The notes below the pieces were generated by a model. It did not search any database, had not been told where the DNA came from, and saw only the letters and a program-made list of their open reading frames with translations. A stretch of 64,000 nt of DNA from an uncultured Methanosarcinales archaeon (GTDB lineage Archaea; Nanobdellota; Nanobdellia; Woesearchaeales; ARS49): positions 518,424 through 582,423 of the forward strand of contig CAYGYR010000001.1 of NCBI GenBank assembly GCA_964354285.1, read 5' to 3'. How positions within the stretch are numbered: position 1 is the first letter of the stretch; every line of letters begins with the position of its first letter. Both the position numbers and the translations under genes were made by a program. Shown here piece after piece: positions 3,027 through 57,983 of the stretch.

Positions 3027-3188
3027 ATGCTTGTAGTCAAAGCAAAGATAAAAGAGATTGCCGGTGATTTTAATGTAGCTGGCGATTTTGCAGATGCCCT
3101 TAACAAGAAAACAGAGCAGCTGGTAAAAGATGCTCTTGACAGGGCAAAGGCAAACAACAGAAGAACAGTTATGGCAAAAGATATATGA
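3027..3188 (+). CDS. Small histone-fold-like DNA-binding protein (start at internal ATG after the GAGGTGA Shine-Dalgarno)
   Basis: Helix-loop-long helix pattern; the ending RRTVMAKDI resembles archaeal histone RKTIKAEDI; only about 53 aa, so alpha3 appears absent. Confidence 0.3.
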   Translation: MLVVKAKIKEIAGDFNVAGDFADALNKKTEQLVKDALDRAKANNRRTVMAKDI

Positions 3189-3189
3189 T

Positions 3190-33716: not shown

Positions 33717-34166
33717 TTAAAACTTTTGATTTATAAAGAAGAGAATTAATGCAATAACAAGAAATGAAATCACGCAGATCGTAATCTCTTTTTTGTTTTT
33801 GAGAACCAGGCTTCCTGTCGGAAAGCTGTAAAGAAAAATTGAGGCAGAGACTGGCAGAAACATGCCTGTCAATGATGCCAGGAAAAAAACAAAAGCAAGG
33901 AAAGCATAAGTAATCGCGTGGCGCATCTTTTCATAATAATACAAATAAATGAAAATAATCAGCCCTCCTGCCCACATATAATGGATATTTGTCCTGTTGG
34001 CATACATCAAAAAAACAATTGCGAGCGTGAAAAGAATTTTCTGCAGCCAAACAAAATATTTTTTTCCTGGATTTAGTTCTTCTTTTGCAAAATATCCGAT
34101 AACAGCTCCGCAGATTAAGCCAAGGGCTGTGATTAAAGCAATCAAGGAATAATTCAGGATTTCCAT
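33717..34166 (-). CDS. Membrane protein
   Basis: Four or five TM helices; its start overlaps the end of the Dph2 remnant. Confidence 0.4.
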   Translation of the reverse strand: MEILNYSLIALITALGLICGAVIGYFAKEELNPGKKYFVWLQKILFTLAIVFLMYANRTNIHYMWAGGLIIFIYLYYYEKMRHAITYAFLAFVFFLASLTGMFLPVSASIFLYSFPTGSLVLKNKKEITICVISFLVIALILFFINQKF

Positions 34167-34408
34167 TCAGAATGCCCCCACTGGATCAATAAGTCAACAC
34201 CAAGGCCTTCAACTTGCTTTGGGATATCACACGCCCCAAAACAAGAGCCAAGCCAGATGATTACCTCTGCACCTGTTTTTGACTTCAGCTCATCTGCTAT
34301 GCTTTTTGCTTCTGGCTTCAGGCCATCTGGCAATTGGATACAGACCCTTCTGGCTTTTGCTTTCTTTATTTCCTCTGCTGCTCTTTCAAGCTCTAAATCG
34401 TATTCCAT
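34154..34408 (-). pseudogene. dph2: N-terminal remnant (84 aa) of diphthamide synthesis protein Dph2
   Basis: VCIQLPDGLK...IIWLGSCFGACD...LLIQWGHS matches the Dph2 N-terminus, but the ORF stops after 84 aa where about 330 are expected. Confidence 0.5.
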
Positions 34409-34499: not shown

Positions 34500-34602
34500 C
34501 TTGACTTTTGCGCTATACTGAAAATATGAAACGCAAAAGTTTAGTTTTAGAAAACTATTTAAATCATCTGTCACAACTAAACCACAAGGCGATTAAATAC
34601 TT

Positions 34603-34688
34603 GCCCCCGTAGCTTAACGGTGGAGCGACTGACTGTTATCCATTGGAGAGAAATCAGTAGGTCACCAGTTCGAATCTGGTCGGGGGCG
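34603..34688 (+). tRNA. tRNA-Asn (GTT) with an anticodon-loop intron of about 14 nt
   Basis: Acceptor GCCCCCG/CGGGGGC; T-arm ACCAG-TTCGAAT-CTGGT; anticodon stem ACTGA/TCAGT enclosing CTGTTAT plus the intron. Confidence 0.75.
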
Positions 34689-34693
34689 TATTT

Positions 34694-36277
34694 TCAGTTC
34701 GCTCTTGCGAGCGAGAATTCTTCCTTCATCTTGTTTATCAAGTCTGCCCTGGCATACTGTGCAGCATTCTTTGTTGCATTGTAGAATGCGGTCTCATTTG
34801 ACCTTCCGTGGCACTTGATTACGCAAGTATTAAGGCCCAGCAAAGGAGCACCACCATACGACGATGAATCAAATGTTGCCTTGAGATCGTAGAACATGTC
34901 TTTAAGCAGGTATCCGCCAATTTTTCTTTTATTTTTTCTCACAAAAGAAGGGTCATGGTATATTCCCTTCTTTACAAACTGGAACAATTTATTGACCAGG
35001 GCCTCGCCTTCTTTGAGAATTATATTTCCAATAAAGCCATTTGTGACAAATATGTCAGCATATCCCCCAAAGAGAGCCTCAACTGACTGATTTTTTCTTG
35101 AATCTGGATTAAAAGATTTTTTTAATTCATCAAACAGCCCATTCAGCAACGCCTTGCCTAGCTTTCTCTTTGCATATTGTATTATCCCATTTGAATCCTG
35201 CACGCCTTTTTCAACATGCTGAATTAATTTATCAACAAGTGTTTCCTTCATGCTGAGAATCATTCTTGCACTAAAGCTGTCTGTGATGTAAATATCTGCA
35301 TGCCCGTTAAATAGAGGGTATGGCTCTGCATTTTTCTTGAAGTTTTTTCCAAACTCTGCCTCAAATAACTTATATGCCTCAAGCTCTAGAGCCCTGCCTT
35401 TATTTGACTCCTCACCTATATTGACAAGAGCTATTGTGGGCTCTTTGATTCCTTTGGTTCTCTGCACCTGCTCAATCGCTTTTTTTGCAAGCTCAACCAG
35501 ATATCGTGGGGTGCAGACCGCATCTGCTTTTGGCTTTACAAAATATGCTTTGCCAGTATCATATGCAGGATCTTTTTCTGTGCCCGCACTTCTTATCCAA
35601 GGAATTGAAACTAAATTAAACTCAGCTTCAGCAGCATCCTGCATTTTGCCTGAGCTGCCTATAACCCCAAGATAATTCTGTAGAAAATGCCTTACAAGCT
35701 CCTTGTTTGCTTCTGCCTCTAAATCCATGTACTCCACTTTTTCATCCACATCAACCAGCGCAATTGTAGGCTCACTGACGCCAAGAACATGCTGGACATA
35801 AAGCCTTGCCATGATTGCAAAATCACGCAGATTCTGCGGGGTATAACTCATATTTGCGCCAGCATCAAGCAGATATGAAAATCCAGTAGCGTACTTACCA
35901 TTTACCATTTTAACCCAGGGAAGCGGAATTATGATTGGCGGATTCTCAAACTCTTCTGTGCACATGCCTATCCCCTTCTTGACAGAAGCCATAACAAGCT
36001 TTGTGTTGTTTGCAGTGACTATTGCATCTATTTCCTGCTTATTGCTTAACTCAGTAAGAACCCTCAGTGCTGCGCCTTTGCTTTTTTTGGTGGTGTTTGC
36101 CGCAATTAATCTTTCTAGAGAATGCTTGGCGCAGAATTCTTTAATTTCAGCAGCATCTCCAGGAATGACGATTTCAATGCATTTGTCTTCCTCGAGAGCT
36201 CTCTTTGCACCATAGAGCGCGGGATGTCCTTCAACCTCACTTGTCGGATCAAGCCCTATTCTAACATAATTTGTCAT
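34694..36277 (-). CDS. plsX: PlsX-like phosphate acyltransferase family protein with an internally duplicated C-terminal module
   Basis: TANNTKLVMA (GNTG-like), AGANM; the EPTIALV(D/N)...EE and ADI(Y/F)(I/V)T(D/N)(S/G)F motifs each occur twice; ends in YGGAPLLGL. Confidence 0.55.
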   Translation of the reverse strand: MTNYVRIGLDPTSEVEGHPALYGAKRALEEDKCIEIVIPGDAAEIKEFCAKHSLERLIAANTTKKSKGAALRVLTELSNKQEIDAIVTANNTKLVMASVKKGIGMCTEEFENPPIIIPLPWVKMVNGKYATGFSYLLDAGANMSYTPQNLRDFAIMARLYVQHVLGVSEPTIALVDVDEKVEYMDLEAEANKELVRHFLQNYLGVIGSSGKMQDAAEAEFNLVSIPWIRSAGTEKDPAYDTGKAYFVKPKADAVCTPRYLVELAKKAIEQVQRTKGIKEPTIALVNIGEESNKGRALELEAYKLFEAEFGKNFKKNAEPYPLFNGHADIYITDSFSARMILSMKETLVDKLIQHVEKGVQDSNGIIQYAKRKLGKALLNGLFDELKKSFNPDSRKNQSVEALFGGYADIFVTNGFIGNIILKEGEALVNKLFQFVKKGIYHDPSFVRKNKRKIGGYLLKDMFYDLKATFDSSSYGGAPLLGLNTCVIKCHGRSNETAFYNATKNAAQYARADLINKMKEEFSLARAN

Positions 36278-36348: not shown

Positions 36349-36422
36349 TGGGCCTGCCGTGATTCGAACACGGGACCTCACGATTATCAGTCGTGCGCTC
36401 CACCAGACTAAGCTACAAGCCC
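36349..36422 (-). tRNA. tRNA-Ile (GAT)
   Basis: Minus-strand cloverleaf: acceptor GGGCTTG/CAGGCCC, anticodon stem CACGA/TCGTG with loop CTGATAA, T-arm CCGTG-TTCGAAT-CACGG. Confidence 0.85.
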
Positions 36423-36537
36423 GTTGAATAGTTGTAGAGCATGGTTTGTTTTTAAAAGTTATGCTTTTTTGCAATAAAATATACTCACTGGCCAACCACC
36501 CACAATCTATTTAAAGCGATATTCACTAATTCTCTGC

Positions 36538-38043
36538 ATGCAGAGCATCAAAGTCGAAGAGAAATCAGGAGAGCCTGTCATAAACCTGGCTCTAGACACG
36601 ATATCCAAGAAGAAACAGGCTCTTGTCTTCGTAAATGCAAAGCGCTCTGCTGAGAAGTGCGCAGAGGATATAAGCAAGAAAATAAAAGAAACAAGCCAGG
36701 AATTAACAGAACTCTCTGAAAAAGCACTCGGCGCGCTAAGCAGGCCGACAAAACAGTGCGAAAGGCTTGCAAAATGCCTTGCAAAAGGAATAGCTTTCCA
36801 CCATGCAGGACTGCATTCAAAACAAAAAGACCTGATTGAAGAAAATTTCAGAAAAGGAAAAGTAAAGATAATCTGCTGCACCCCAACACTTGCTGCAGGA
36901 GTTGATTTGCCCGCATTCCGCTCAATCATCCGCGATGTGAAAAGATACACGAGCATGGGAATGCAGCACATCCCTGTCTTGGAATACCTGCAGATGGCAG
37001 GAAGAGCAGGAAGGCCTTCATTTGACGCTTATGGTGAAGCAATACTTATTGCAGGCACTGATGCTGAAAAAAAAGCAATATACGAAAAATTCGTGCTTGG
37101 AGAGCCAGAAGAAGTTTATTCAAAGCTCGCAGTAGAGCCTGTCTTAAGAACATACTTATTGTCCCTTATTTCAACAAAAGTGATACAATCACAGGAGGAG
37201 ATATACACTTTCTTTGGAAAAACATTCTGGGCCCACCAGTTCAAGGACACGGCAAAGTTGAGAAAGAAAATAGACCAGATGCTGAAACTGCTCGAGGAAT
37301 GGGAGTTCATACAGCCGTTAAGCGGAAGCTACAATGCAACACTGTTCGGCAAGAGAGTTGCAGAGCTTTACATTGACCCTTTAACTGCGCATCATTTCAT
37401 CCATTGCCTGCAGATGGCAAAAGACACGAAAATAATGCCGATGTCCTTGCTTGTACTGGTTTCTAACACTCTTGAGATGACTCCGCAGCTGAGAGTCAAG
37501 ACCAAAGAATATGACGAAATACAAGAGCACATTGCAAAACACGAAAGTCACATGATTGACAAGGAGCCCAGCATGTTTGAGCCAGAATACGAGGATTACA
37601 TAAATGCATTCAAGACAGCCATGATGTTTGATGAGTGGATAAACGAGAAAGATGAGGAGCAGCTTCTTGAGCAGTATGACATAAGGCCAGGAGAGACCAG
37701 GGCAAAGCTTGAGAAGGCAGAGTGGCTTCTTTATGCATTGTCTGAAGTTGCAAGAATCAACCAGCAGCAATTCATCCTTAAAGACATTGCAAAACTAAGA
37801 TTCAGGCTAAAGCACGGCGCAAAAGAAGAATTAATACCCTTGCTAAGATTGAAAAACATAGGCAGGATAAGAGCAAGAAAAATGTTCAGGGCAGGTGTAA
37901 AGGATTTAGGTGATGTGAAGAAAACACCCCATGAACAGCTTTCAGTAATTCTTGGAAGCAAAAAAATAGCACTTGATATCAAAGAGCAGGTCGGGGAGAA
38001 GATAGTGGAAGAAAAAGATGGAACCCTGGAAAAGTTCAGTTGA
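36538..38043 (+). CDS. Hel308/Ski2-like helicase, C-terminal portion only (RecA2, winged helix, ratchet, HhH); N-terminal motor domain absent
   Basis: Begins at ALVFVNAKRSAE (start of RecA domain 2); HHAGL and TPTLAAGVDLPA motifs; no Walker A or DEAH box; only 115 nt upstream before tRNA-Ile. Confidence 0.6.
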   Translation: MQSIKVEEKSGEPVINLALDTISKKKQALVFVNAKRSAEKCAEDISKKIKETSQELTELSEKALGALSRPTKQCERLAKCLAKGIAFHHAGLHSKQKDLIEENFRKGKVKIICCTPTLAAGVDLPAFRSIIRDVKRYTSMGMQHIPVLEYLQMAGRAGRPSFDAYGEAILIAGTDAEKKAIYEKFVLGEPEEVYSKLAVEPVLRTYLLSLISTKVIQSQEEIYTFFGKTFWAHQFKDTAKLRKKIDQMLKLLEEWEFIQPLSGSYNATLFGKRVAELYIDPLTAHHFIHCLQMAKDTKIMPMSLLVLVSNTLEMTPQLRVKTKEYDEIQEHIAKHESHMIDKEPSMFEPEYEDYINAFKTAMMFDEWINEKDEEQLLEQYDIRPGETRAKLEKAEWLLYALSEVARINQQQFILKDIAKLRFRLKHGAKEELIPLLRLKNIGRIRARKMFRAGVKDLGDVKKTPHEQLSVILGSKKIALDIKEQVGEKIVEEKDGTLEKFS

Positions 38044-38489
38044 GGCATATTATGGAGCATATCGCAATACTTTCAAAAAAAAGAAAAATTCTTGATAAAA
38101 TCATTTCAGGAGAGAAAACAATAGAATCAAGATGGTATAAATTCAAAAAAGCCCCTTTTGAAGCAATCTTTGCAGGCGAAACTGTTTATTTCAAAGAATC
38201 AGGAGAGATGATATCTGCAAAAGCAAAAGTCAAAAAAACATTGTTCTTCAAAGACCTCAATCTTGAAAAGATAAAAGAAATACTGACAGCACACGGAAAA
38301 GATATTTGCATGAATATATCTCAGGCTGAAACAATCAAGGATAAAAAATTCTGTACATTAATTTTCCTTGAAGATGTTAAAAAAATAGAGCCTTTTGCAA
38401 TCAATAAGAAAGGATTTGGCGTGATGGCTGCATGGATATCCATTGATGATGTTGGCAAAATAAAGAAAATGCCAAATGCTGACAGGTGA
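38040..38489 (+). CDS. ASCH-domain protein
   Basis: ILSKKRKILDKIISGEKTIESR ASCH signature; 4-nt overlap with the helicase ORF. Confidence 0.55.
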   Translation: MRHIMEHIAILSKKRKILDKIISGEKTIESRWYKFKKAPFEAIFAGETVYFKESGEMISAKAKVKKTLFFKDLNLEKIKEILTAHGKDICMNISQAETIKDKKFCTLIFLEDVKKIEPFAINKKGFGVMAAWISIDDVGKIKKMPNADR

Positions 38490-39126
38490 ACAATTGATAC
38501 AAAGAATGACAGAAGACAACTCAGTGACTCTTTTTAATGAGAAATACCAGGAATATTACCACTCGATTCATGGCGCACTGGAAGAGGCATTTGAGAAATA
38601 CATAAAGCCCTGCAGGATTGCTGAGATTGCAAAAACCGGAAAAATCAGGATTCTTGATGTTTGCTTTGGCCTCGGCTATACATCTGCAGCTGCAATTGAG
38701 GCAGCTCTTGAAAGCAATCCTGAATGCGAGATTGAGATTGTAGGATTGGAGATTGATGCTGGCATATTTGATGAAATGAAAAAAGTAAGTCCTTCATTAA
38801 AATATTATGATGTGATACGCGGAGATAAAAAAAATCCCAAAATAAACCTAAAAATTCTAGTTGCTGACGCAAGAGTTAGTATAAAAGAGCTAACAGAGAA
38901 ATTTGATGCAGTTTTCCTGATTCCATTCAGCATTGCAGTCTGCCCAGAGCTCTGGACTGTTGAGTTTCTTTCAGACATTAAAAAAGCCATGAAGCCAGAA
39001 GCAATTCTTGCCACGTATTCCTGCGCAAAGCTTGTACGGAATAATCTTAAATCAGCAGGATTCATTATCAAGGACGGGCCAGCAGTGGGAAGAAGAGGGC
39101 CGTCTACAATCGCAACTCTTAAATAA
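38476..39126 (+). CDS. SAM-dependent methyltransferase, MnmC-like (DUF752-type)
   Basis: YHSIHGALEE and LDVCFGLGY motifs. Confidence 0.45.
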   Translation: MLTGEQLIQRMTEDNSVTLFNEKYQEYYHSIHGALEEAFEKYIKPCRIAEIAKTGKIRILDVCFGLGYTSAAAIEAALESNPECEIEIVGLEIDAGIFDEMKKVSPSLKYYDVIRGDKKNPKINLKILVADARVSIKELTEKFDAVFLIPFSIAVCPELWTVEFLSDIKKAMKPEAILATYSCAKLVRNNLKSAGFIIKDGPAVGRRGPSTIATLK

Positions 39127-39147: not shown

Positions 39148-39798
39148 ATGAACAAATACGACCTGCACGTCCACACGTATCATTCTTCTTGTTCTAGAAT
39201 CAAGCCTGAGAAATTATTGAAAATTGCAAAGAAAAAAGGCCTGAATGGAATTGCGGTAACAGACCACAACACAATAAAAGGCGGGCTGGAGGCAAAGAAG
39301 CTCAACAAAGACAAGAATTTTGAGGTGATTGTCGGTGCTGAGATAAAGACACCTCAAGGAGAGATTCTCGGATACTATCTGAACAAAGAAATAAAATCAA
39401 GAACTCCTGCAGAAGTCATTGATGAAATCCACTCACAAGGTGGGCTTGCATTTATTGCTCACCCATTCACATGGGGAATCATAAGACAAGCAATGCAGGC
39501 AGACTGGAAGGAAATCAAAAAAGCTGATGGTTTTGAGACATTTAATGCAAGAATGACTTTCAAATGGGAAAATGAGCTTGCACAGCAGTTCGCGCAAAAG
39601 AAAAGATTAGCGCAGACCGGAGGATCTGACGCTCATTTTTGCTATGAGATTGGAAGGGCATTCACTGCTTTTGATGGAGATTTCAGGACAGCTGTTAAAA
39701 AGAAGAAGACCTTTGCCAGTGGAAGGATAGCCCCAATTCCTTTTGGCAGGGCACTGAGCTTGTTAAGGAAATTTACAGTTAAATTTATAAAACAGTAA
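39148..39798 (+). CDS. PHP-domain metal-dependent phosphoesterase
   Basis: YDLHVHTYHSSCS and AVTDHNT PHP motifs. Confidence 0.7.
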   Translation: MNKYDLHVHTYHSSCSRIKPEKLLKIAKKKGLNGIAVTDHNTIKGGLEAKKLNKDKNFEVIVGAEIKTPQGEILGYYLNKEIKSRTPAEVIDEIHSQGGLAFIAHPFTWGIIRQAMQADWKEIKKADGFETFNARMTFKWENELAQQFAQKKRLAQTGGSDAHFCYEIGRAFTAFDGDFRTAVKKKKTFASGRIAPIPFGRALSLLRKFTVKFIKQ

Positions 39799-40367: not shown

Positions 40368-40460
40368 GCCCCTGTAGTATAGCTTGGATAGTACGCGAGG
40401 TTGCGGACAGCGTGTAAATGCAAAAACCTTGAAACTGGGGTTCAAATCCCCGCAGGGGCG
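40368..40460 (+). tRNA. tRNA-Arg (GCG) with an anticodon-loop intron of about 19 nt
   Basis: Acceptor GCCCCTG/CAGGGGC; anticodon stem CGAGG/CCTTG around TTGCGG plus intron; T-loop TTCAAAT. Confidence 0.7.
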
Positions 40461-40521
40461 TGTTTTAAAATCCTTAAACTGTGTCACAATATTTAAAAAT
40501 AAGTTCTTACGAAGCAAGCTC

Positions 40522-41799
40522 ATGCAGGAATACTATCTGTCCCGAAATGCCAACAGCGAGGAATCAATAAAACTTTTTCTTAGAGATATTGGCAAACAAG
40601 AGATTCTCAAAAAAGAAGAAGAATTCGCATTGGCAGAGCAGATGGCGTACTACAAGAAAGAGATAATCCTAAACTTGTGCAGGCTTCCTGACTACAAAAA
40701 CTGCCTTGAAGACAGGTTAAAAGAATACAATGCTTATTGCGGGCAGATTGGAAAAAAAGAGCAGATTGAGAAGATACTCAATGACAAAACAAAAGGTGTT
40801 GAAACACGCCTCAAGTCTTGCATGGAACAAGTTGACAGAATAAACGCACGCTTAGCCTATCTTGCAAAAAATAGCAGCAGCGTTGGTGTGAGAAAGATAA
40901 CTAGCCAATTAAGAATCCATAAGCATAATCTGATAAATGATCTTGATTTTCCTCGCGACTTCATCTACAGGCTTATATTTGACCTGAAAGAAGCAAATCT
41001 TGGCAGGAGGTATGATGCAATAACAGAGAGAGTATACAAGCTCAATGAGTGTTATAATTCTGCTTTTGAGCTGTTTTCCAACTCAAATCTTAGGCTTGTT
41101 GTGAGTATTGCGAAAAAATATAGGTTCAGGGGATTTACTTTCGGAGACCTTATCAACGAGGGATGCTTTGGCCTGATAAGAGCCATAAACAAGTATGATT
41201 ACAAAAGGGGATATAAGTTCTCCACATACGCAACTTGGTGGATAAGGCAGGCAATACTTCGCGCTCTGGCTGACAAGGCAAATCTCAGAAGGATTCCAAT
41301 CCACATACTTGAGAAAAGAAACCTCATCAGTAAAGCAAGAGCTTGCCTCAGGGAAAAATCAGATGAAACACCCACTGTTGATCAGCTGGCAGAAGAAGCG
41401 AATATGTCTATTGCGGAAGCAGAGAACATTGAGAATGTATTTTCACGCAAGACAATCTCTCTTGATAAGCCTGCTAAAGATGACGATGATGATTACGGCA
41501 GCATGGTTGACTTTATGGTTGATGATAAATCTGCAAATCCTCCAAAGGAAGCAATAAGAAATGATATGAAGATAACAGTGCATAAAGTTCTCAATAATGC
41601 ACTTGACAGCAGGGAGCAAGAGATAATAAAACTAAGATACGGCATACCTGACGGCGCAAAATACACCCTTGAGGAAGTAGGCAGGATTTTCAGGGTCTCA
41701 AAGGAAAGAATCAGGCAGATAGAAGCAAAAGCAATGAGCAAACTGCAGCATCCTAGAAGCCCAAAGCTAAAAGCTTTTCTTGAGAAAGTAGGCAGATGA
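40522..41799 (+). CDS. Bacterial-type sigma-70 family RNA polymerase sigma factor (regions 1.2, 2, 3 and 4 present)
   Basis: [11 protein letters not shown] (region 1.2); [13 protein letters not shown]...[37 protein letters not shown] (region 2); [26 protein letters not shown] (region 4 HTH). The larger ORF start overlaps the tRNA, so the start is set at M47. Confidence 0.8.
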
Positions 41800-49574: not shown

Positions 49575-50129
49575 ATGCAATTAGGAAAAACATTATGTGT
49601 AACCAATAGAAAAGATTGGCGTTCATGGCTTGCTAAAAATCATAATAAAGAAAAAGAAATTTGGCTAATTTATTATAGAAAATCATCTGGCAAGCCAAGG
49701 ATACCATACAATGATGCTGTTGAAGAAGCACTCTGTTATGGATGGATAGACAGCATTATCAAGTCTATTGATGAGGAAAAATTCGCCCAAAGATTTACGC
49801 CGCGAAGACCAAAAAGCGTGCTTTCAGAGCTGAATAAGGAACGTATCCATAGACTGATTGCAGATAAGAGTATGACTTCTAAAGGCCTTAATGCAGTCAG
49901 CCATGCATTCGATAAAAACCAGAAATTTACAATTGCCCCCTATATTTTGAAAAATCTTCAACAAGACCAGGAAGTTTGGAAAAACTTCCAGAACTTTCCT
50001 CATTCATACAAACGCATTCGTATCGGTTGGATAGCATCAGCTAGAACTCGCCCGAAACTTTTTAGTCAGAGATTAAAATATTTTCTAAAGATGACTGCAA
50101 AGAATAAAAAATATGGGATGATGCAGTAA
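49575..50129 (+). CDS. YdeI/OmpD-associated family protein (DUF1801-like)
   Basis: WRSWLAKNH...CYGWIDS...FTPRRPKS family pattern. Confidence 0.55.
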   Translation: MQLGKTLCVTNRKDWRSWLAKNHNKEKEIWLIYYRKSSGKPRIPYNDAVEEALCYGWIDSIIKSIDEEKFAQRFTPRRPKSVLSELNKERIHRLIADKSMTSKGLNAVSHAFDKNQKFTIAPYILKNLQQDQEVWKNFQNFPHSYKRIRIGWIASARTRPKLFSQRLKYFLKMTAKNKKYGMMQ

Positions 50130-50486
50130 TAAACTGACAGCAGTTATTTATTGAATTCTCTAAATATTGATTCCAGACTTATAATTCCCTCAGGTAAAGA
50201 AGGAACTCTCCTAGAGAAGGATTAGTTCCCCAAAAAGGGTCTCTGATTTTGCAGAGGTTTGGGCAGGGCTAATCTTTTTTTAAACCGCATCTTATCCAAG
50301 ATAATCTGCAGTATTTACGCCAGACTTCTAATATCTTTTCGAACAGATTTTACGAAATCTTTATAAAGGTTTATAGGCTATCGCATATAGCTTAAATTAG
50401 GAAAATACAAATATACGACTATAAATAATTTGGTTGATCAAATAAATTATGTTTGTTTTCTTCCGGATATTTAGAGATGAATTAAT

Positions 50487-51020
50487 ATGGCAAAATTATC
50501 ATTAAAAGGATATGAATTTGAAGATGTTATTGTTAAAGACTCTTTTAACAGAAGAGAGTTAGCCTTTGCAAATAACATAATACGCACTTTAAAACAGATT
50601 GGTGTTGATGAAGATCAAATAGAGGTTAGTCATGAAAATCTGCCCTTGACAAAAAAACCAGCTCGTGTTTCATGGTATCACAAAGAAAGGCACCATTATT
50701 ATAGTTATTCAGGAAAAAGATTTGTAGACAACCTGTTTGTAGTTAATAAAATTATTAGCTTAAGCGTACTTGATGTCATTGAAGCCAGAAAAAGCTATGA
50801 AGATTTTTCTCTAGATTTTTTAGAAGAAACAAATATAGAGGATAAAAGGAAAGAGGCCAGAGAATATTTTGGTCTTAAAGAGAATTTTACGATGGCGGAT
50901 GTTAATAATGCATATAAGCAGCTAGCCAAGGATTTACATCCAGACATGCCTAATGGGGATGGAGAGAAGTTTAAGAAATTAAATGAAGCCCACAAAATTC
51001 TTAAGAGAGAACTAACTTAA
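50487..51020 (+). CDS. J-domain protein with an uncharacterised N-terminal domain
   Basis: C-terminal J domain with YKQLAKDLHPDM (HPD motif). Confidence 0.6.
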   Translation: MAKLSLKGYEFEDVIVKDSFNRRELAFANNIIRTLKQIGVDEDQIEVSHENLPLTKKPARVSWYHKERHHYYSYSGKRFVDNLFVVNKIISLSVLDVIEARKSYEDFSLDFLEETNIEDKRKEAREYFGLKENFTMADVNNAYKQLAKDLHPDMPNGDGEKFKKLNEAHKILKRELT

Positions 51021-51074
51021 TTTTAATTATAAAAAACAACAAAGTTTATTAATTAAGTTATCTTTTTTTTAAAA

Positions 51075-51647
51075 ATGGATTTTAAAAACAATTGCAGGAA
51101 GTGCCCAAAAAACACGCATTGCTGCATTTTTAAAAACTCAGGATTTGTTTTTGTAGGCATCAAAGACGCAAGAACAATCAAGAAGCAAACTAAAAAAGAA
51201 TACTGCTTCTTTTTGGATTATTCACCAATTTCAAAAAAAATTGTTAATTGCTTAAAACACGATGATCCTGCTCTTGAAGGAAGATTAAGATATTCCCAAT
51301 TAGATAAAAATAACCGCATTCTCAGATTGAAAACCAAAAAAGACAGCAGATGCCTTTTCTTAAATAAGCATAACTTGTGTGATATCTATGGCATTAGGCC
51401 GAATATATGCAGAATATTCCCTTTTTGGGCAGTGAAGCTGATTAATGGCAAAATTAAGATTATACCTCACGATGTTCAATCTAAGTGCAAAATTATAACA
51501 GCATTAATTAAAAAACAAAGAGATAATATTGATGAAATTTTAAGTAGAAAAGAAAAAATCGAAATCAAGAAAACAGTTAGAAAGATTAAAGATGAGAATG
51601 TCTTCTATAAGAACAATATTCTGAAATTTATAAAAGATATAACCTGA
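51075..51647 (+). CDS. YkgJ-family Cys-cluster protein (paralog of 47486..47998)
   Basis: CRKCPKNTHCC and CRIFPF motifs. Confidence 0.45.
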   Translation: MDFKNNCRKCPKNTHCCIFKNSGFVFVGIKDARTIKKQTKKEYCFFLDYSPISKKIVNCLKHDDPALEGRLRYSQLDKNNRILRLKTKKDSRCLFLNKHNLCDIYGIRPNICRIFPFWAVKLINGKIKIIPHDVQSKCKIITALIKKQRDNIDEILSRKEKIEIKKTVRKIKDENVFYKNNILKFIKDIT

Positions 51648-51670
51648 CATAATGATGTTTCAAACCACAT

Positions 51671-53593
51671 TTACAAAATATCAACTAATTTTATGCACAT
51701 CTTTATCGCATCGCTGCAGTTGTCCATCTTTTTTGAAAGCTTATGGTCATTTGTTGCTTTTTTTACCTGCGAAACCTTGTCTAAAAGAGTCCTGTAAAAT
51801 CTCAATAAATCGCCTTCTGGCAATTGCGTGTTCTCAATCACCTTAAAGATATCCTCGCCATGAAAACAAGGATCGATTAATGCAGTCATTTTAATGATAT
51901 TATCAAAACGCTTTTCAGCCTTGAGATAATCATTTCCATTCAGTTTTGATTTTAATTTTTCTATTGATTTATCAGGATATACCTGTTTGAACTCCTCTTC
52001 TTCCCTGGATTCAAAACATATGCATGCTATCAGCAGCAGCAAATGGTATTCATCAAGATCCTCATAGAATTTGCCAAAGAATATCTCACCCATTAAAAAT
52101 TCATCACAATATATTTTTGATGCAAAAATCCCTTTTTCAGTGAGGCAATCATCTTTTAAATATCCTAGTTTAGTCAGCTTTTTCTTCAAATTATCAAAGG
52201 CATTATGGCTTTTCATATTCCTTCTCTTATCAAAGTTCTTGCCGTATCTCTGGTAAGAATCAAAGCTTTCGCATAATATCTCCGCAATTTCAGGAACAGT
52301 GTGCCTTTGGATCATATTTAATACTGTGTTAGGGGAAATCTTGAACTGCGAGTTTATCGGTTCAGTGTCTTTTGCGATCATCTTTTTAATCTTGTTATAC
52401 TCAAAATCATTCCTGTTTATCATAGGTATAACATATCCTATCTTGTCAATCCCCCTGCGCCCTGCGCGCCCCGCAATCTGGAAAAACTCTTTCGATGAAA
52501 TATATCTGAAATTAAATCCATCAAATTTCCGTAAAGTCTCAAAACAAACAGTCTTTGCAGGCATGTTAATCCCCACAGCAAATGTTTCAGTGGTATACAA
52601 AACTTTAATCAGGCCAAGAGAGAATAATTCCTCGACAATGTCTTTTAAAATCGGGATAAGGCCTGCATGATGAAATCCTATGCCCTTTGACAGTGTTTTT
52701 TTAAGGAGCATTGTTGATTTGAGAGTATTTATTTCCGGGGGCGATTCACTCAGCCTTTCTCTTACCATCTTGATTATTTCCAAATTAGTCTCAAATACGC
52801 CGCAAGTATAAAGCTCATCAGCCATCTTCTCGCATTTTGATCTTGAGAAACTGAAAAACAAGCATGGCAGTTTGTCATAAATATCCTTGATAAGCTCAAT
52901 ATGTGAAGCAGTTTTGATTCTTTTATGCCAATGCCTTGATTTTCCCATAACACTGTCATAATCAGGTATCTCTGCAATGTCTTTAATTTCATTAAGCGAG
53001 GATATGCCTAGCTCAAAATCATAAAAATTTGTTTTTAATGGCACGGGCCGTTCAGCATGCTCGATTACTTGAACCTTGTGATTTTTTATAACACTGATCC
53101 AGTCAGCAAATTCTCTTGCGTTGGGGATAGTTGCAGAAAGGCACAAAAATCTGGTGCTTGACTTTGAAAATATTATAGATTCTTCCCAAACATACCCTCT
53201 TTCAATATCACTAATAAAATGAATCTCATCAAAAATCACGTAAGAGATGTTCTTTATTATGTCATCATCTGACATAAGCATATTTCTATAAATCTCAGTA
53301 GTCATTATAAGAATAGTTGCACCAGGATTTTTCACAGTATCTCCTGTCAATAATCCTATATTCTCTTCACCGTAATCCTTGCAAAAATCTTTGTATTTTT
53401 GGTTTGAAAGCGCCTTGATTGGCGCAGTGTAGATAACTTTTATGCCCTTTTTGATATCGCGGCTGATAATATAATCAGCAATCAAGGTTTTTCCAGAACC
53501 TGTCGGAGCGCTCACTATCACAGAATAGTTTTTTTCAATTGCAATAATGGCTTCTTCCTGAAACTTGTCAAGCTGCAATCCCTTAAAAATCAT
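51671..53593 (-). CDS. Ski2-like DExH-box helicase
   Basis: Walker A APTGSGKT, DEIH box, HHAGL motif. Confidence 0.85.
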   Translation of the reverse strand: MIFKGLQLDKFQEEAIIAIEKNYSVIVSAPTGSGKTLIADYIISRDIKKGIKVIYTAPIKALSNQKYKDFCKDYGEENIGLLTGDTVKNPGATILIMTTEIYRNMLMSDDDIIKNISYVIFDEIHFISDIERGYVWEESIIFSKSSTRFLCLSATIPNAREFADWISVIKNHKVQVIEHAERPVPLKTNFYDFELGISSLNEIKDIAEIPDYDSVMGKSRHWHKRIKTASHIELIKDIYDKLPCLFFSFSRSKCEKMADELYTCGVFETNLEIIKMVRERLSESPPEINTLKSTMLLKKTLSKGIGFHHAGLIPILKDIVEELFSLGLIKVLYTTETFAVGINMPAKTVCFETLRKFDGFNFRYISSKEFFQIAGRAGRRGIDKIGYVIPMINRNDFEYNKIKKMIAKDTEPINSQFKISPNTVLNMIQRHTVPEIAEILCESFDSYQRYGKNFDKRRNMKSHNAFDNLKKKLTKLGYLKDDCLTEKGIFASKIYCDEFLMGEIFFGKFYEDLDEYHLLLLIACICFESREEEEFKQVYPDKSIEKLKSKLNGNDYLKAEKRFDNIIKMTALIDPCFHGEDIFKVIENTQLPEGDLLRFYRTLLDKVSQVKKATNDHKLSKKMDNCSDAIKMCIKLVDIL

Positions 53594-53688
53594 TTTAGAT
53601 TAAGAAAATGTACACCTATTTAAAGCTATCAAACAGATTTTCAGATCTGATGATTGCATAACAATTCTAGTTTTTTTAAGAATGAATA

Positions 53689-54918
53689 TTATCTTCTAAA
53701 ACTAGGCCTACGCCTGAATTTAGATTTAAAATCTCTGCGAAAAGGCCTTTGCTGTTTTGGTGCGGGCTTAGCAGCTGCGCCGACAGCATTTTTTGCATAT
53801 TCTGAATGGTATGCATGCTGCATAACCTCAATCTTTTGCCTAATCAGCTTTTCAATATCGCGAAGAAAATCTCTTTCATCTGCTGCGCAAAAAGAATACG
53901 CTGTGCCTTCTGCCCCTGCTCGTGCAGTCCTGCCTATCCTATGGACATAGCTTTCAGGCAGATTAGGAAGCTCAAAATTTATAACATGAGAAATACAGTC
54001 TATATCAATCCCGCGCGCAGCAATGTCTGTAGCAACCAACACTTGTATTTTTCCTGATTTGAAATCAGAAAGCGCCTGTGTTCGCGCATTTTGTGATTTA
54101 TTGCCATGAATTGCATCCACTTGGATGTTATTCTTGTGTAGATATAATGCAACTTTATTTGCACGATGCTTTGTGCGGGTAAACACTAAAACGCGGGTAA
54201 GATGCTCTTGCCTAAGAAGGTCCAATAACAGCTGTTCCTTAGCAGAAGAATCCACAAAAAAAACACATTGTTTTACACTTTCAACAAGGGTTGCTTGTGC
54301 TGCAGCCTCAACATGAACTGGATTTCTAAGAAGTGTTCCGGCAAGATCGCATATCTGAGGAGACATTGTTGCTGAGAAAAAAAGCGACTGGCGCTTTTGC
54401 GGCAATCTGGATATTATTTTTTTGATATCATTGATAAATCCCATATCAAGCATCCTATCAGCTTCATCTAAAACAAAAAATTCAATGTCTTTCAAGCTGA
54501 TTCGGCCTTGATTCATTAAATCAAGCAATCTGCCTGGTGTTGCGATAACAATATCAACACCCTTAGCCAGAGCATTAACCTGTGATCCTTGGCCAACACC
54601 CCCAAAAATGACAGTATGCTTAAATTTAAGAAACTCACCGTATGCAGAAAAACTTTCACCAATCTGTGCTGCAAGCTCCCTAGTTGGCGCAAGGACTAGT
54701 ACACGGATAGTTCGAGGATATTTTTCAGTCATCCTTTGAAGGATAGGCAATACAAATGCAGCAGTTTTGCCTGTTCCTGTTTGAGCTATGCCTATTAAAT
54801 CTCTCCCTTTCAAGAGATCAGGAATAGCTTTTGACTGTATTGGTGTCGGCTCAACATACCCCTGTTTGGCAATTGCCCTTTCAAGAGGCTCTATCAGATT
54901 TAGATTTTTAAATGACAT
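53689..54918 (-). CDS. DEAD-box ATP-dependent RNA helicase (RhlE-like) with a basic C-terminal tail
   Basis: Q-motif, [15 protein letters not shown] and HRIGRTAR motifs. Confidence 0.9.
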
Positions 54919-55010
54919 TTTAGTTTTTTATAAATTAATAAGCATGCTTTATGCTTTTAAAGGTATGGTTTATTAAGGTATGCAATTAAATTATTCAGTA
55001 TTCACATATA

Positions 55011-55034
55011 CAGCCCTGTGGTGTAGCAGCCAAG
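55011..55034 (+). other. Orphan duplicate of the tRNA-Gln(CTG) 5' segment
   Basis: AGCCCTGTGGTGTAGCAGCCAAGC versus the tRNA 5' end AGCCCTGTAGTGTAGTGGCCAA (20 of 22 identical); intron-like TATTCAG lies just upstream. Confidence 0.5.
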
Positions 55035-55073
55035 CAATAAATATTTATACCTTTTCTTCTATCCAATTCACTT

Positions 55074-55979
55074 GTGAGAGTCCAATTTAAATCATCAAAA
55101 CAAAGAGAAGTAATTCTGAATTTTAAACAGAATACTGATTTAACTTGGCAAGAACTTGCGGATTATTTGCATGTCAGAAAATCAGCATTATTAACCTGGT
55201 ATCATGAAAAAACTTTGTTGCCGTATGCAATATACATAATATTAGATAAAAAAGGACTGTTCAAAGAGCACATTCTAGAACTTAAAAATGATTGTTGGGG
55301 CCAAAGCAAAGGAGGAATTGCATCAACAGGAACAACAAAAGAAATATCCTTGCCAAGGCCTTGTACAGATTTAGCTGAATTAATCGGCATTGTATTAGGT
55401 GATGGTAATATCCATGAATACATTCAGACTAAAAAAATTAGGACATATATGCTAAGAATAGCGGGAGATTCGAGAAAAGACAGAAATTATCTTGTGACTT
55501 ATGTTGCTCCGCTCTGCGAATGCTTGTTTTCAATCCAGCCAAAATTTTTATATCAAAAACAGAGCAATGAGCTTTTTGTTATATTACACAGCAAGAAAAT
55601 CATTGAGTTCTTTAAAAAAATGGGCTTAACGCCAGGTAACAAAATCAAGAATCGATTAAATATTCCTGGCTGGGTACTCGAAGATGAGACATATCTTCGA
55701 GCATGTTTGCGTGGTTTAATAGATACAGACGGATCTATTTTCAGAATGTCAAATAGAGATCCGCAATTATTGAGAATTAATTTTAGAAATGTAAATAGCT
55801 CTTTGCTTGAAACTGTTTATAAGTCTTTTATTACGTTAGGATTTAAACCGGCACTTGCAAATAATGTAGTTTACTTATCTAGGAAGCAAGATATAGTAAA
55901 CTTTTTAAAAGGCATAGGTTTTTCTAATAGTAAGCATAGGTTAAGGCTTAAGAAGTTCAAAGGCAGCCCTGTAGTGTAG
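55074..55979 (+). CDS. Free-standing double-motif LAGLIDADG homing endonuclease with an N-terminal HTH-like region
   Basis: LIGIVLGDGNI and LRGLIDTDGSIF motifs; the last 15 nt overlap the tRNA-Gln 5' end. Confidence 0.8.
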   Translation: MRVQFKSSKQREVILNFKQNTDLTWQELADYLHVRKSALLTWYHEKTLLPYAIYIILDKKGLFKEHILELKNDCWGQSKGGIASTGTTKEISLPRPCTDLAELIGIVLGDGNIHEYIQTKKIRTYMLRIAGDSRKDRNYLVTYVAPLCECLFSIQPKFLYQKQSNELFVILHSKKIIEFFKKMGLTPGNKIKNRLNIPGWVLEDETYLRACLRGLIDTDGSIFRMSNRDPQLLRINFRNVNSSLLETVYKSFITLGFKPALANNVVYLSRKQDIVNFLKGIGFSNSKHRLRLKKFKGSPVV

Positions 55980-56072
55980 TGGCCAAATTTTTATTCAGCG
56001 TATGCTGAATAGAAAGGCTAGGCATGATTGGCTCTGGACCAATCGACGGCGGTTCGAATCCGCCCGGGGCTA
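55965..56072 (+). tRNA. tRNA-Gln (CTG) with a non-canonical intron of about 35 nt in the D-loop region
   Basis: Acceptor AGCCCTG/CGGGGCT, anticodon stem ATTGG/CCAAT with loop CTCTGGA, T-arm GGCGG-TTCGAAT-CCGCC; extra segment ATTTTTATTCAGCGTATGCTGAATAGAAAGGCT after GTGTAGTGGCCAA. Confidence 0.6.
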
Positions 56073-56134
56073 TTATTTATTCTGTATCAAAAGATGAGCA
56101 ACTTGGTAGAGATGTCCTGACAGGGATATTCTGA

Positions 56135-56629
56135 TTATCTTATGTCTGAGTGCTCAAGAAATTTAATGATTTTTTTAAATTTGTCTTCTAAAAATCTCAC
56201 ATCTGCTTTCTTTATCCTTTTTTTGTTGTATTTTAGAAAAAATCTTAGAACACCTGGTTCAATCCAGCACAATTTATCTGCTGTTTTTATTATTTTGCCT
56301 TCAACTGTTTTTGGTTTTTTGGAAGAACCATGATTTAATATACAATCTTCCAGCTTAGAATCAACTCTAAATCCGCTCTTTTTCAAAATATTAACACTAT
56401 GAAATGCATGATCTTCAGAAGAGATAGTTCTTCCTATATCATGCAAATTAGCTGCAATCACTAATGTTTTTCTGTCAACCTTTCTTTTTTCAGCTAGAAT
56501 AAGCGCAGTTTCTCTTACTTGTTTCATATGCGCAAGAAAGATCTCCTTGTCCTTAGCAGATTTAACCTTGCCAAATAACTGCTTAGCAAATTGTTCAGAA
56601 CTTTTAATAGTTAAAGTTAATTTTTTCAT
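56135..56629 (-). CDS. HD-domain phosphohydrolase
   Basis: H...HD...H...H...D pattern (ANLHDIGR). Confidence 0.6.
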   Translation of the reverse strand: MKKLTLTIKSSEQFAKQLFGKVKSAKDKEIFLAHMKQVRETALILAEKRKVDRKTLVIAANLHDIGRTISSEDHAFHSVNILKKSGFRVDSKLEDCILNHGSSKKPKTVEGKIIKTADKLCWIEPGVLRFFLKYNKKRIKKADVRFLEDKFKKIIKFLEHSDIR

Positions 56630-56755
56630 AATATTAAATAACTTAACTCAATATTTAAACATTTCCAAAGTTTCTCATCAAATGATACAAAAATCATAGA
56701 TATCTGTGAGGGGCTATCGATTCTTTTCTTCCAGCCCTAAATTCAACTCTTAGAA

Positions 56756-56962
56756 TCATCCCAAAAGCTCCTTATATCCTTCCAGGTTTTTTAGTCCATA
56801 TGCGCTGATTATTTTTTCCCTGCCTTTTGGCTCTTTTAGAAGTCTTTCAATAAATTTCTGTGATTTGGCAAATTGCGCATTAATGAATTCTGTGTGAATC
56901 TTTTTCCATTTATCAGGGTTTTCTTTCATAAATCTTATCCAGCGGTCAATTTCTTCGCTCAT
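56756..56962 (-). CDS. Small helical hypothetical protein, coupled to the upstream nucleotidyltransferase-like gene
   Basis: 68-aa ORF with a 4-nt overlap. Confidence 0.3.
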   Translation of the reverse strand: MSEEIDRWIRFMKENPDKWKKIHTEFINAQFAKSQKFIERLLKEPKGREKIISAYGLKNLEGYKELLG

Positions 56963-57516
56963 GATAATCTTAGCCTTCTTATCATTTTTTTAATATGATT
57001 GATGTTATCTTCACTGATTTGCTCGGCATATATCTTTCTTAAATGCTCTGCATCTTTTAAATCCTTCTCTGATTTCAATAGTTCTTCCTTAAATGCTATA
57101 TTCATGTCTATGCTGCTGAACCAGACATCAAGGCCGGTCAAAGGCAGCTTCGTTCTTGTCCTGATTTGAAACTCATCCAGATCATCTTTTACAAACTTGA
57201 TTTCCATCTCTGGCAAAGGCTGGTTTCTTAGCGTGTAGCGCACTGCTATTTTATCTTTTAAGTAATCGAATATCTCTTCTTCTGAATCAGACTGCATGCA
57301 CGTAAATCCTCCTTTTATTAAGTCCTGGTGCAGCCTCTTGAATCTTTCAAAATCGAGTTTTTCAATAATCATATCAATGTCTTCTGTTGCCCTGCTTCTT
57401 CCAGAGCTTATTGCAACAAATCCTGAAACAATTATGTACTTGCAGTGCTTATCTATTATAGAACAAAACTTAATACAAAAATCATCCAATATATTTTTAT
57501 CATCTATTGCGCGCAT
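56959..57516 (-). CDS. Minimal nucleotidyltransferase-fold protein (putative)
   Basis: GFVAISSGRSRATEDIDMII resembles the GS...D.D motif of pol-beta-type nucleotidyltransferases. Confidence 0.4.
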   Translation of the reverse strand: MRAIDDKNILDDFCIKFCSIIDKHCKYIIVSGFVAISSGRSRATEDIDMIIEKLDFERFKRLHQDLIKGGFTCMQSDSEEEIFDYLKDKIAVRYTLRNQPLPEMEIKFVKDDLDEFQIRTRTKLPLTGLDVWFSSIDMNIAFKEELLKSEKDLKDAEHLRKIYAEQISEDNINHIKKMIRRLRLS

Positions 57517-57569
57517 AATTCTTATTAAAGAATTTGCTCTTATAAACTTTTCTAATGAACTTGATTAAA

Positions 57570-57959: not shown

Positions 57960-57983
57960 ATTAGCATTGTTAACTCAACTGAT

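What the first reader, a model, noticed from the sequence alone, without database searches (positions are those of the whole stretch)
36538..38043. Hel308-like helicase lacking its N-terminal motor domain, followed by overlapping ASCH, methyltransferase and PHP genes
The ORF begins exactly at the start of RecA domain 2 and retains the winged-helix, ratchet and HhH parts. Walker A and DEAH motifs are absent, and only 115 nt separate it from tRNA-Ile. It is either a recent truncation (the 501 intact codons argue against an old pseudogene) or a split gene whose N-terminal half is encoded elsewhere. The three downstream genes overlap it or each other by 4-14 nt (ASCH, MnmC-like methyltransferase, then PHP), suggesting one RNA-processing or repair operon.
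Basis: seen in the sequence. Interest (0 to 1): 0.5.

Follow-up and report, generated by a model that had tools for sequence, protein, structure and literature searches.

The report
C-terminal half of split Hel308 helicase
This gene is the conserved C-terminal subunit of a DNA-repair helicase (Hel308/Hjm) that Woesearchaeota archaea encode as two separate genes, so it is neither broken nor recently truncated; split genes are well known in these tiny archaea, but I found no paper describing this one.

Summary
The ORF at 36538-38043 is real. It encodes 501 aa covering Hel308 RecA2 (motifs IV, IVa, V, VI), the winged helix, the ratchet domain and the HhH domain. It has no Walker A or DExH motif and lies 115 nt from a divergent tRNA-Ile.

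It is not a recent truncation. The 120 closest protein clusters (58-88% identity, those named being Woesearchaeota or Nanoarchaeota) are all 459-533 aa and lack a DEAD domain. dN/dS against a 77% orthologue is about 0.07. A TATA-like box sits about 28 nt upstream of the ATG in 34 of 43 distinct orthologous loci.

The missing part exists as a separate family of about 220-aa RecA1 proteins in the same phylum. Together the two families cover full-length Hel308, with the junction about 20 residues inside domain 2. Both halves occur in the same genome in three relatives, usually far apart. The N-half is not in this 64-kb window, and this organism's own genome could not be searched.

The "one operon" idea is only partly supported: helC-methyltransferase-PHP order is limited to a small subclade, the ASCH gene is a local insertion, and PHP does not overlap its neighbour.

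Verdict: a new member of the known DPANN split-gene phenomenon, of moderate interest.

The parts
36349..36422 (-). tRNA-Ile (GAT), divergent from the helicase gene
   Evidence: ARAGORN. The same divergent tRNA-Ile/helC junction is present in L004, L088 and L089.
36510..36515 (+). TATA-like box TTTAAA, 28 nt upstream of the ATG; inferred promoter of a leaderless mRNA
   Evidence: Sequence. 34 of 43 distinct orthologous upstream regions have a TATA-like hexamer starting at -31 to -26, and the AT fraction is 0.84-0.95 at -29 to -24. Function is inferred, not measured.
36538..38043 (+). Hel308/Hjm C-terminal subunit gene (501 aa): RecA2, winged helix, ratchet and HhH domains
   Evidence: (Hjm 2zj2, E=1.6e-100), and 58/61 (AF2 model; top structural matches Hjm/Hel308, TM 0.67-0.75).
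36538..37098 (+). RecA2 domain lacking its first ~20 residues; carries motifs IV (res 29), IVa FHHAGL (87), V TPTLAAG (115) and VI QMAGRAGR (152)
37033..37314 (+). Winged-helix domain (PF20470, residues 166-259)
37441..37818 (+). Ratchet domain (PF21280, residues 302-427, E=1.8e-32)
37825..38007 (+). C-terminal helix-hairpin-helix domain (about residues 430-490)
   Evidence: HhH-like motif at residue 438. PF14520 is recorded on many homologues. The alignment to Hjm runs to residue 686. The AF2 model shows helices at 430-484.
38052..38489 (+). ASCH-like gene (145 aa), a lineage-specific insertion between helC and the methyltransferase
   Evidence: Pfam ASCH is sub-threshold. The family has ASCH-annotated members. 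The gene is absent from this position in L001 and L087.
38476..39126 (+). MnmC2-like SAM methyltransferase (216 aa), overlapping the ASCH gene by 14 nt
   Evidence: PF05430, E=2.1e-26. NCBIfam tRNA_MNMC2 scores 100.6 bits, below the 136 cut-off. It overlaps helC directly in L001 and L087.
39148..39798 (+). PHP-domain metallohydrolase (216 aa), 21 nt after the methyltransferase stop
   Evidence: PF02811 and PF13263. NCBIfam CehA/McbA scores 84.1 bits, above the cut-off of 80. A TTAAATAA box lies at -29 and a T-run lies in the 21-nt gap.

Best explanation
The ORF is the C-terminal subunit of a Hel308/Hjm DNA helicase whose gene underwent fission in the Woesearchaeota lineage (GTDB Nanoarchaeia). 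One gene, located elsewhere in the genome, encodes about 220 aa: RecA1 with motifs I-III plus the first beta-hairpin of RecA2, ending in ...WRPVxLxKGIYxxGxIEF. The gene in this window encodes the rest: RecA2 motifs IV-VI, winged helix, ratchet and HhH. Each gene is an independent transcription unit; this one has a TATA-like box 28 nt upstream of its ATG, which implies a leaderless mRNA.

Inferred mechanism: the two polypeptides assemble after translation into a heterodimer. This rebuilds the ATP site at the RecA1/RecA2 cleft and the ring around single-stranded DNA, giving an ordinary Hel308-type 3'-5' helicase for replication-fork and recombination repair. The N-half's C-terminal hairpin probably completes the RecA2 sheet of the C-half by strand complementation.

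Shown here: the domain content, the conservation, the complementary N-half family, co-occurrence in the same genome in relatives, and the promoter motif. Inferred: physical assembly, helicase activity, and the presence of the N-half in this particular genome.
For: (1) Conserved short form. The 120 best clusters are 459-533 aa at 58-88% identity and none has PF00270. In 52 metagenome loci the match starts at query residues 1-17 wherever the 5' end is present, and an in-frame stop lies upstream in every locus listed.

(2) Purifying selection. pN is 0.144 against pS 0.707, giving dN/dS about 0.07 versus L001. Motifs IV, IVa, V and VI are invariant across 36 sequences.

(3) Full-length relatives. 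Proteins of 700-730 aa at 40-50% identity align query residues 3-12 to their residues 228-240.

(4) Complementary family. A profile built from those N-termini finds many 219-228-aa DEAD-only proteins; those that carry a name are Woesearchaeota or Nanoarchaeota. At least 586 loci in species-representative genomes encode a relative. All 80 inspected are stand-alone, and the 79 complete ORFs have a modal length of 220-222 aa with a conserved C-terminus.

(5) The two families cover Hel308 between them. The N-half aligns to Hjm 8-216 and the C-half aligns from Hjm 229, which projects to about 213 for residue 1. The domain 1/2 boundary is at 197/198.

(6) Same-genome pairs.
- CAZGZA010000017.1 carries both halves 1.67 kb apart.
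- WJKI01 has them on contigs 54 and 13.
- GCA_030651135.1 has them on JAUSCS010000006.1 and JAUSCS010000013.1.

(7) Own promoter. A TATA-like hexamer lies at -31 to -26 in 34 of 43 upstream regions.

(8) Structure. The AF2 model (pLDDT 80) matches Hjm/Hel308 best. The isolated C-half is poorly predicted in the motif V-VI strands (residues 118-165, pLDDT 31-46), and the N-half model ends in a lower-confidence hairpin at residues 211-220. Both fit strand complementation.
Against: The N-half was not found in the 64-kb window. No experiment or complex prediction shows that the halves bind each other. The low pLDDT could simply reflect a shallow alignment of 36 sequences. The halves are unlinked in nearly all genomes, so co-regulation is not evident. 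The window also encodes an intact Ski2-like helicase (51671-53593), so some functions could be covered by a paralogue.
Confidence: 0.85

Rival explanations
1. Recent truncation or pseudogene: the N-terminal motor domain was lost by a deletion or rearrangement at the tRNA, and the remnant is decaying.
For: The ORF lacks RecA1 and directly abuts a tRNA gene.
Against: The same short form is conserved at 58-88% identity in at least 120 protein clusters. dN/dS is about 0.07. Catalytic motifs are invariant. A promoter-like box is conserved. The tRNA-Ile junction is conserved in distant relatives.
Confidence: 0.02
2. Autonomous C-half: the protein has become an ATP-independent DNA-binding, annealing or scaffold factor that works without any RecA1 partner, and the 220-aa DEAD protein serves other functions.
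For: The halves are genomically unlinked, each with its own conserved neighbourhood. A strand-annealing function that depends on motif IVa has been reported for Hel308 (abstract of PMC10484726, listed).
Against: Motifs V and VI, including the arginine-finger region QMAGRAGR, are invariant; they only make sense next to a RecA1 ATP site. The N-half keeps the first RecA2 hairpin, which has no role in an isolated RecA1. The two families together account for the full Hel308 sequence and co-occur in three genomes.
Confidence: 0.08
3. The halves are joined after expression, either by a split intein (protein trans-splicing, as in the split DNA polymerase of N. equitans; recalled from memory, not checked here) or by RNA trans-splicing.
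For: Intein-bearing Hel308 relatives exist: proteins of 1000-1250 aa whose matches break at query positions 119/120 and 152/153. Nanoarchaeota trans-splice tRNA halves (PMC3655853).
Against: N-halves end, and C-halves start, directly in Hel308-homologous sequence, with no room for the N- and C-terminal segments of a split intein. There is no significant complementarity between the N-half 3' flank and the C-half 5' flank in two same-genome pairs (z=+0.78 and -1.0).
Confidence: 0.02
4. Assembly error, frameshift, or an unrecognised upstream exon at the tRNA junction.
For: None beyond the unusual architecture.
Against: An independent Logan assembly of another run gives the identical gene and upstream sequence (L003). 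The junction with tRNA-Ile is present in L004, L088 and L089. tblastn and phmmer find no N-half-like coding sequence anywhere in the window except two intact, different helicases.
Confidence: 0.01

Closest known systems
Archaeal Hel308/Hjm helicase (P. furiosus Hjm 2ZJ2; A. fulgidus Hel308 2P6R; S. solfataricus Hel308 2VA8)
   Same: Best sequence and structural match (E=1.6e-100; Foldseek TM 0.67-0.75). Same RecA2 motifs IV, IVa, V and VI, and the same winged-helix, ratchet and HhH domains in the same order.
   Different: The characterised enzymes are single polypeptides of about 700-720 aa. Here domain 1 and the first ~20 residues of domain 2 are absent from the protein, and in relatives they are supplied by a separate gene of about 220 aa.
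Split protein-coding genes of Nanoarchaeota (N. equitans and Nst1: reverse gyrase, large helicase-related protein Lhr, RNA polymerase B, and others; PMC3655853)
   Same: The same phenomenon in the same superphylum: a normally single gene encoded as two unlinked ORFs that must assemble after translation. An SF2 helicase (Lhr) is among the known cases.
   Different: A different protein (Hel308, not Lhr) and a different lineage (mesophilic Woesearchaeota). The split is conserved across at least 80 inspected species-level genomes rather than one or two genomes. I found no paper describing it.
Split Dph2 of Woesearchaeota, Pacearchaeota and others (Narrowe et al. 2018, as cited in PMC6349945)
   Same: A second, already reported gene fission in the same lineage. 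An 84-aa Dph2 N-fragment lies 2 kb upstream in this very window (34154-34408).
   Different: Unrelated protein and function.

Membership tests
Hel308/Hjm (Ski2-like SF2 DNA helicase) | RecA1 domain with motifs Q, I (Walker A), Ia, Ib, II (DExH) and III in the same polypeptide | tested here: not met
   No DEAD domain and no Walker A or DExH motif. NCBIfam Hel308 profiles are matched only from position 222 onward, so scores fall below the cut-offs. These motifs are present in the separate N-half family of relatives.
Hel308/Hjm (Ski2-like SF2 DNA helicase) | RecA2 domain with motifs IV, IVa ([F/Y]HHAGL), V and VI | tested here: met
   PF00271. Motifs lie at residues 29, 87, 115 and 152 and are invariant in 36 homologues.
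Hel308/Hjm (Ski2-like SF2 DNA helicase) | Winged-helix domain 3, ratchet domain 4 and HhH domain 5 after the motor | tested here: met
   PF20470 and PF21280. The alignment to Hjm runs to residue 686. The AF2 model aligns over 442-492 columns with Hjm/Hel308 structures.
Hel308/Hjm (Ski2-like SF2 DNA helicase) | DNA-dependent ATPase and 3'-5' unwinding of forked DNA | not testable with these tools
   Needs biochemistry with both subunits.
DPANN/Nanoarchaeota-type split protein gene | Two separate ORFs, each with its own start and stop, that together cover the full-length homologue without loss | tested here: met
   The N-half aligns to Hjm 8-216 and the C-half from Hjm 229, projecting to about 213 for residue 1. 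N-half ORFs are mostly 220-222 aa. C-half ORFs have upstream in-frame stops.
DPANN/Nanoarchaeota-type split protein gene | Both fragments encoded in the same genome | tested here: inconclusive
   Met in three relatives: CAZGZA01, WJKI01 and GCA_030651135.1.
DPANN/Nanoarchaeota-type split protein gene | Fragments maintained by selection rather than decaying | tested here: met
   dN/dS about 0.07; invariant catalytic motifs.
DPANN/Nanoarchaeota-type split protein gene | Post-translational assembly into an active enzyme | not testable with these tools
There are only indirect hints from single-chain AF2 models.
Split-intein trans-spliced protein | N-intein at the end of the N-fragment, C-intein at the start of the C-fragment, and a nucleophile at +1 | tested here: not met
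   The fragment ends are Hel308-homologous right up to their termini, with no extra sequence.
Conserved helC-ASCH-MnmC2-PHP operon | Gene order conserved across the family that carries the helicase | tested here: not met
   helC-MT30-PHP is found only in the window/L003, L001/L002 and L087, with MT30 alone near helC in L127. It was not found in the other ~50 loci, some of which are too short to show downstream genes. ASCH is adjacent only in this organism.

The most novel reading that the evidence does not exclude
Woesearchaeota may run Hel308 as an obligate two-subunit SF2 helicase. The motor would be cut inside RecA2 and re-formed by beta-hairpin complementation. Because the two genes sit in different, separately conserved neighbourhoods, helicase activity could be controlled by subunit supply or assembly, or the C-half could have a partner-independent role. 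That would make it a natural, phylum-wide 'split helicase' system useful for studying how RecA1 and RecA2 communicate.
Probability: 0.2. Interest if true: 0.6.

Novelty: new member of a known kind. Interest (0 to 1): 0.4.

Why it matters
It turns an apparent defect into an annotation rule. In Woesearchaeota, Hel308 should be scored as present when a DEAD-only protein of about 220 aa and a 'helicase-related protein' of about 500 aa are both found. Genome-completeness and repair-pathway inferences for DPANN archaea that count these as fragments or as absent would be wrong.

It also adds a widely conserved, undescribed case to the list of DPANN gene fissions. Finally, it offers a natural experiment: an SF2 helicase whose two RecA lobes are separate polypeptides, with the cut just after the first hairpin of RecA2.

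Tried and rejected
(1) I looked for the N-half inside the window with a Walker A/DExH motif scan, phmmer using a Ski2 N-domain and tblastn using a true N-half. Only two intact, different helicases were found (51671-53593 and 53689-54918).

(2) I tried to reach this organism's own contig. The look-up of encoding contigs returns only a 10-kb Logan contig.

There were no matches.

(4) I guessed that the 222-aa gene at the start of L086 might be the N-half. It is not.

(5) I looked for an N-half within 10 kb of 52 metagenomic C-halves and found none.

(6) I tested RNA complementarity as a sign of trans-splicing. It was not significant.

(7) I looked up P0273, a 389-aa protein with DEAD and part of Helicase_C, hoping to see the ancestral locus. 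It comes from an unrelated context and was uninformative.

(8) I compared the neighbours of N- and C-halves to infer the ancestral locus. In L140 the L44e-enolase cluster lies beside the N-half, and in L001 it lies 5.5 kb from the C-half. This is suggestive but not conclusive.

(9) Literature searches for a described split Hel308 found none.

Full report
**Observation**

The window is from a DPANN archaeon. It carries an ATP-dependent DNA ligase, and the nearest homologues of its genes that carry a name are Woesearchaeota or Nanoarchaeota. ORF 36538-38043 (+) encodes 501 aa. An in-frame TAA lies 20 codons upstream and no alternative start lies between it and the ATG.

Pfam finds Helicase_C at residues 72-160, a winged helix (HTH_61) at 166-259 and the archaeal helicase domain 4 at 302-427 (E=1.8e-32). 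It finds no DEAD/RecA1 domain. NCBIfam Hel308 profiles are matched only over positions 222-710 of 739. There is no Walker A or DExH motif. Motifs IV, IVa (FHHAGL), V (TPTLAAG), VI (QMAGRAGR) and an HhH-like motif are present.

tRNA-Ile(GAT) lies on the opposite strand at 36349-36422, exactly 115 nt upstream. The core observation is therefore correct. Two details need adjusting.

First, residue 17 aligns with P. furiosus Hjm residue 229, and Hjm domain 2 begins at residue 198 (PMC2636818). The ORF therefore starts about 15-20 residues inside RecA2, not at its first residue.

Second, only the ASCH/methyltransferase junction clearly overlaps, by 14 nt. The helC/ASCH overlap depends on a TTG start at 38040. 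The likelier start is ATG 38052, which has GAGG upstream and gives 145 aa like the homologues. PHP starts 21 nt after the methyltransferase stop.

**Not a truncation**

The 120 best protein clusters, at 58-88% identity, are all 459-533 aa, and none carries PF00270. Those that carry a name are Woesearchaeota or Nanoarchaeota.

In 52 metagenomic loci the match begins at query residues 1-17 wherever the 5' end is present. In every locus examined an in-frame stop lies shortly upstream.

Against the 77% orthologue L001, pN is 0.144 and pS is 0.707, giving dN/dS about 0.07 with dS near saturation. Motifs IV, IVa, V and VI are invariant in an alignment of 36 family members.

A TATA-like hexamer starts 26-31 nt upstream of the ATG in 34 of 43 distinct upstream regions, and the AT fraction is 0.84-0.95 at positions -29 to -24. 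In the window it is TTTAAA at 36510-36515. By established knowledge of archaeal promoters, where the TATA box lies about 26 nt upstream of the transcription start, this implies a leaderless mRNA that starts at or near this ATG. That step is inference.

The divergent tRNA-Ile/helC junction recurs in L004, L088 and L089. An independent Logan assembly reproduces the gene and its upstream sequence exactly (L003). Assembly error is therefore excluded.

**The missing half**

An exhaustive HMMER search shows that full-length Hel308 proteins of 700-730 aa (40-50% identity) align query residues 3-12 to their residues 228-240.

A profile of the first ~230 residues of four of these retrieves, as most of its best hits, 219-228-aa proteins with DEAD-type helicase domains only, 58-65% identical to the full-length N-termini. 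Those that carry a name are Woesearchaeota or Nanoarchaeota. They carry motif I (TPTASGKT), DEIH and SAT.

In species-representative genomes at least 586 loci encode such a relative. All of the best 80 are stand-alone ORFs. The 79 complete ORFs have a modal length of 220-222 aa and end in ...WRPVKLHKGIYLDGEIEF[YE].

This N-half aligns to Hjm 8-216. The C-half aligns from Hjm 229, which projects to about 213 for its first residue. Together the two families cover full-length Hel308. The cut lies just after the first beta-hairpin of domain 2. There is no spare sequence that could be a split intein.

**Same genome**

Three relatives carry both halves.

1. CAZGZA010000017.1 (L073) has the N-half at 3001-3681 and the C-half from 5347, on the same strand. 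Two opposite-strand genes lie between them.
2. Assembly WJKI01 has the N-half on contig 54 (L045) and the C-half on contig 13 (L087).
3. GCA_030651135.1 has the N-half on JAUSCS010000006.1 and the C-half on JAUSCS010000013.1.

Otherwise the halves are unlinked. None of the 52 metagenomic C-half loci has an N-half within the available flanks of up to 10 kb. The N-half has its own conserved neighbourhood: SRP54, often followed by prefoldin and sometimes PRPP synthase, lies convergently downstream, with SRP54 within 3 kb in 44 of 80 loci; enolase and a His-phosphatase gene lie upstream in a minority.

The window itself contains no N-half. The organism's 585-kb contig could not be retrieved. For this genome the presence of the partner is therefore inferred, not shown.

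**Mechanism**

The ATP site of SF2 helicases lies between RecA1 (motifs I and II) and RecA2 (motif VI). This is established knowledge, and Hjm shows the same cleft arrangement. Invariant motifs V and VI in a protein without RecA1 make sense only if a RecA1 subunit docks onto it.

I infer a heterodimer that rebuilds a normal Hel308. Because the cut lies after the first RecA2 hairpin, the N-half probably donates those strands to the RecA2 sheet of the C-half.

Two observations are consistent with this, though neither proves it. The AF2 model of the isolated C-half (pLDDT 80, pTM 0.78) is confident everywhere except residues 118-165 and 188-197, which include the motif V-VI strands. The N-half model ends in a lower-confidence hairpin at residues 211-220, after a confident RecA1 core.

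Foldseek places Hjm/Hel308 structures at the top of the matches, with TM 0.67-0.75. RNA-level joining is unsupported: duplex energies between the N-half 3' flanks and the C-half 5' flanks are no better than shuffled controls.

**Downstream genes**

The methyltransferase is MnmC2-like (PF05430; NCBIfam tRNA_MNMC2 at 100.6 bits, below the 136 cut-off). The PHP protein reaches the CehA/McbA metallohydrolase cut-off.

The order helC-methyltransferase-PHP-unknown-sigma70 is shared with L001 (77% identity) and L087 (62%). In both of those the methyltransferase overlaps helC by 44-56 nt. The arrangement was not found in roughly 50 other C-half loci, some of which are too short to show downstream genes.

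The ASCH-like gene belongs to a family widespread in the phylum. It sits at this position only in this organism's lineage. PHP has a TTAAATAA box at -29, and a T-run lies in the 21-nt gap before it.

Co-transcription of helC, ASCH and the methyltransferase is plausible. A conserved functional operon is not supported. A looser neighbourhood of Dph2 fragment, helC and DNA ligase within a few kb, with tRNA-Ile beside helC in three of the loci, is seen in more distant relatives: L004 and L088-L090.

**Comparison and novelty**

Split protein genes are a recognised trait of Nanoarchaeota. The known cases include an SF2 helicase, Lhr (PMC3655853). Split Dph2 is reported for Woesearchaeota (PMC6349945), and an 84-aa Dph2 fragment lies in this window.

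Three full-text searches and targeted reading found no description of a split Hel308. The comparative Ski2-family study PMC10946056 contains none of the search terms in that sense.

I therefore class this as a new member of a known kind. It is solid and widely conserved, and it is useful both for annotation and as a natural split-helicase model, but it is not a surprise in principle.

Noticed in passing
window 34154-34408 (-): An 84-aa ORF matches only the first 56 positions of the 302-position Dph2 (Diphthamide_syn) profile. Fragments of the same size occur in L001 and L004, with hits in L088-L091 and L107. This is a second split gene in the window; split Dph2 is already reported for Woesearchaeota (PMC6349945, citing Narrowe 2018).
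   Followed up: partly
window 40384-41799 (+) (likely start ATG 40522): A bacterial-type sigma-70 factor (regions 1.2, 2, 3 and 4) is encoded in an archaeal genome and is conserved downstream of the helC block in L001 and L087. Sigma-70 genes in Woesearchaeota have already been noted in PMC8204110. The TTG-start ORF overlaps tRNA-Arg at 40368-40460.
   Followed up: partly
window 34694-36277 (-): A PlsX-like protein of 527 aa shows three FA_synthesis stretches, an apparent internal duplication. The orthologous gene in L001 is 336 aa.
   Followed up: no
window 34602-34689 and 40368-40460: tRNA-Asn (88 nt) and tRNA-Arg (93 nt) are longer than usual and probably contain introns.
   Followed up: no
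window 51671-53593 (-) and 53689-54918 (-): An intact 640-aa Ski2-like helicase (Walker A and DEIH; matches Hel308 profiles only up to about position 500, so it lacks the Hel308 ratchet region) lies next to a 409-aa DEAD-box helicase. Neither is the missing half (31% identity to a true N-half).
   Followed up: partly
window 50000-58000: GC content drops to 0.31-0.36, against 0.40-0.43 elsewhere. The stretch includes an ORF at 55074-55979 with a LAGLIDADG-like motif (LRGLIDTDGSI). It may be an island or mobile region.
   Followed up: no
L073 3001-6675 (CAZGZA010000017.1): This is the only locus found where the two Hel308 halves are close: same strand, 1.67 kb apart, separated by two opposite-strand ORFs of 141 and 391 aa that were not run through domain searches (the longer looks like a membrane protein). 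It could represent an early 'insertion' stage of the fission.
   Followed up: partly
L140 (JAUSCS010000006.1) and L006-L085: The N-half gene has its own conserved neighbourhood: SRP54, often followed by prefoldin and sometimes PRPP synthase, lies convergently downstream (SRP54 within 3 kb in 44 of 80 loci), and enolase and a His-phosphatase gene lie upstream in a minority. In L001 the L44e-S27e-eIF2alpha-Nop10-PAC2-enolase cluster instead lies 5.5 kb upstream of the C-half.
   Followed up: partly
relatives (e.g. P0122, P0140, P0158): Many Hel308 relatives are 1000-1250 aa, with the match broken at query positions 119/120 or 152/153 (around motifs V and VI). These are probably inteins. Some split C-halves of 550-620 aa carry an insertion near residue 260.
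   Followed up: no
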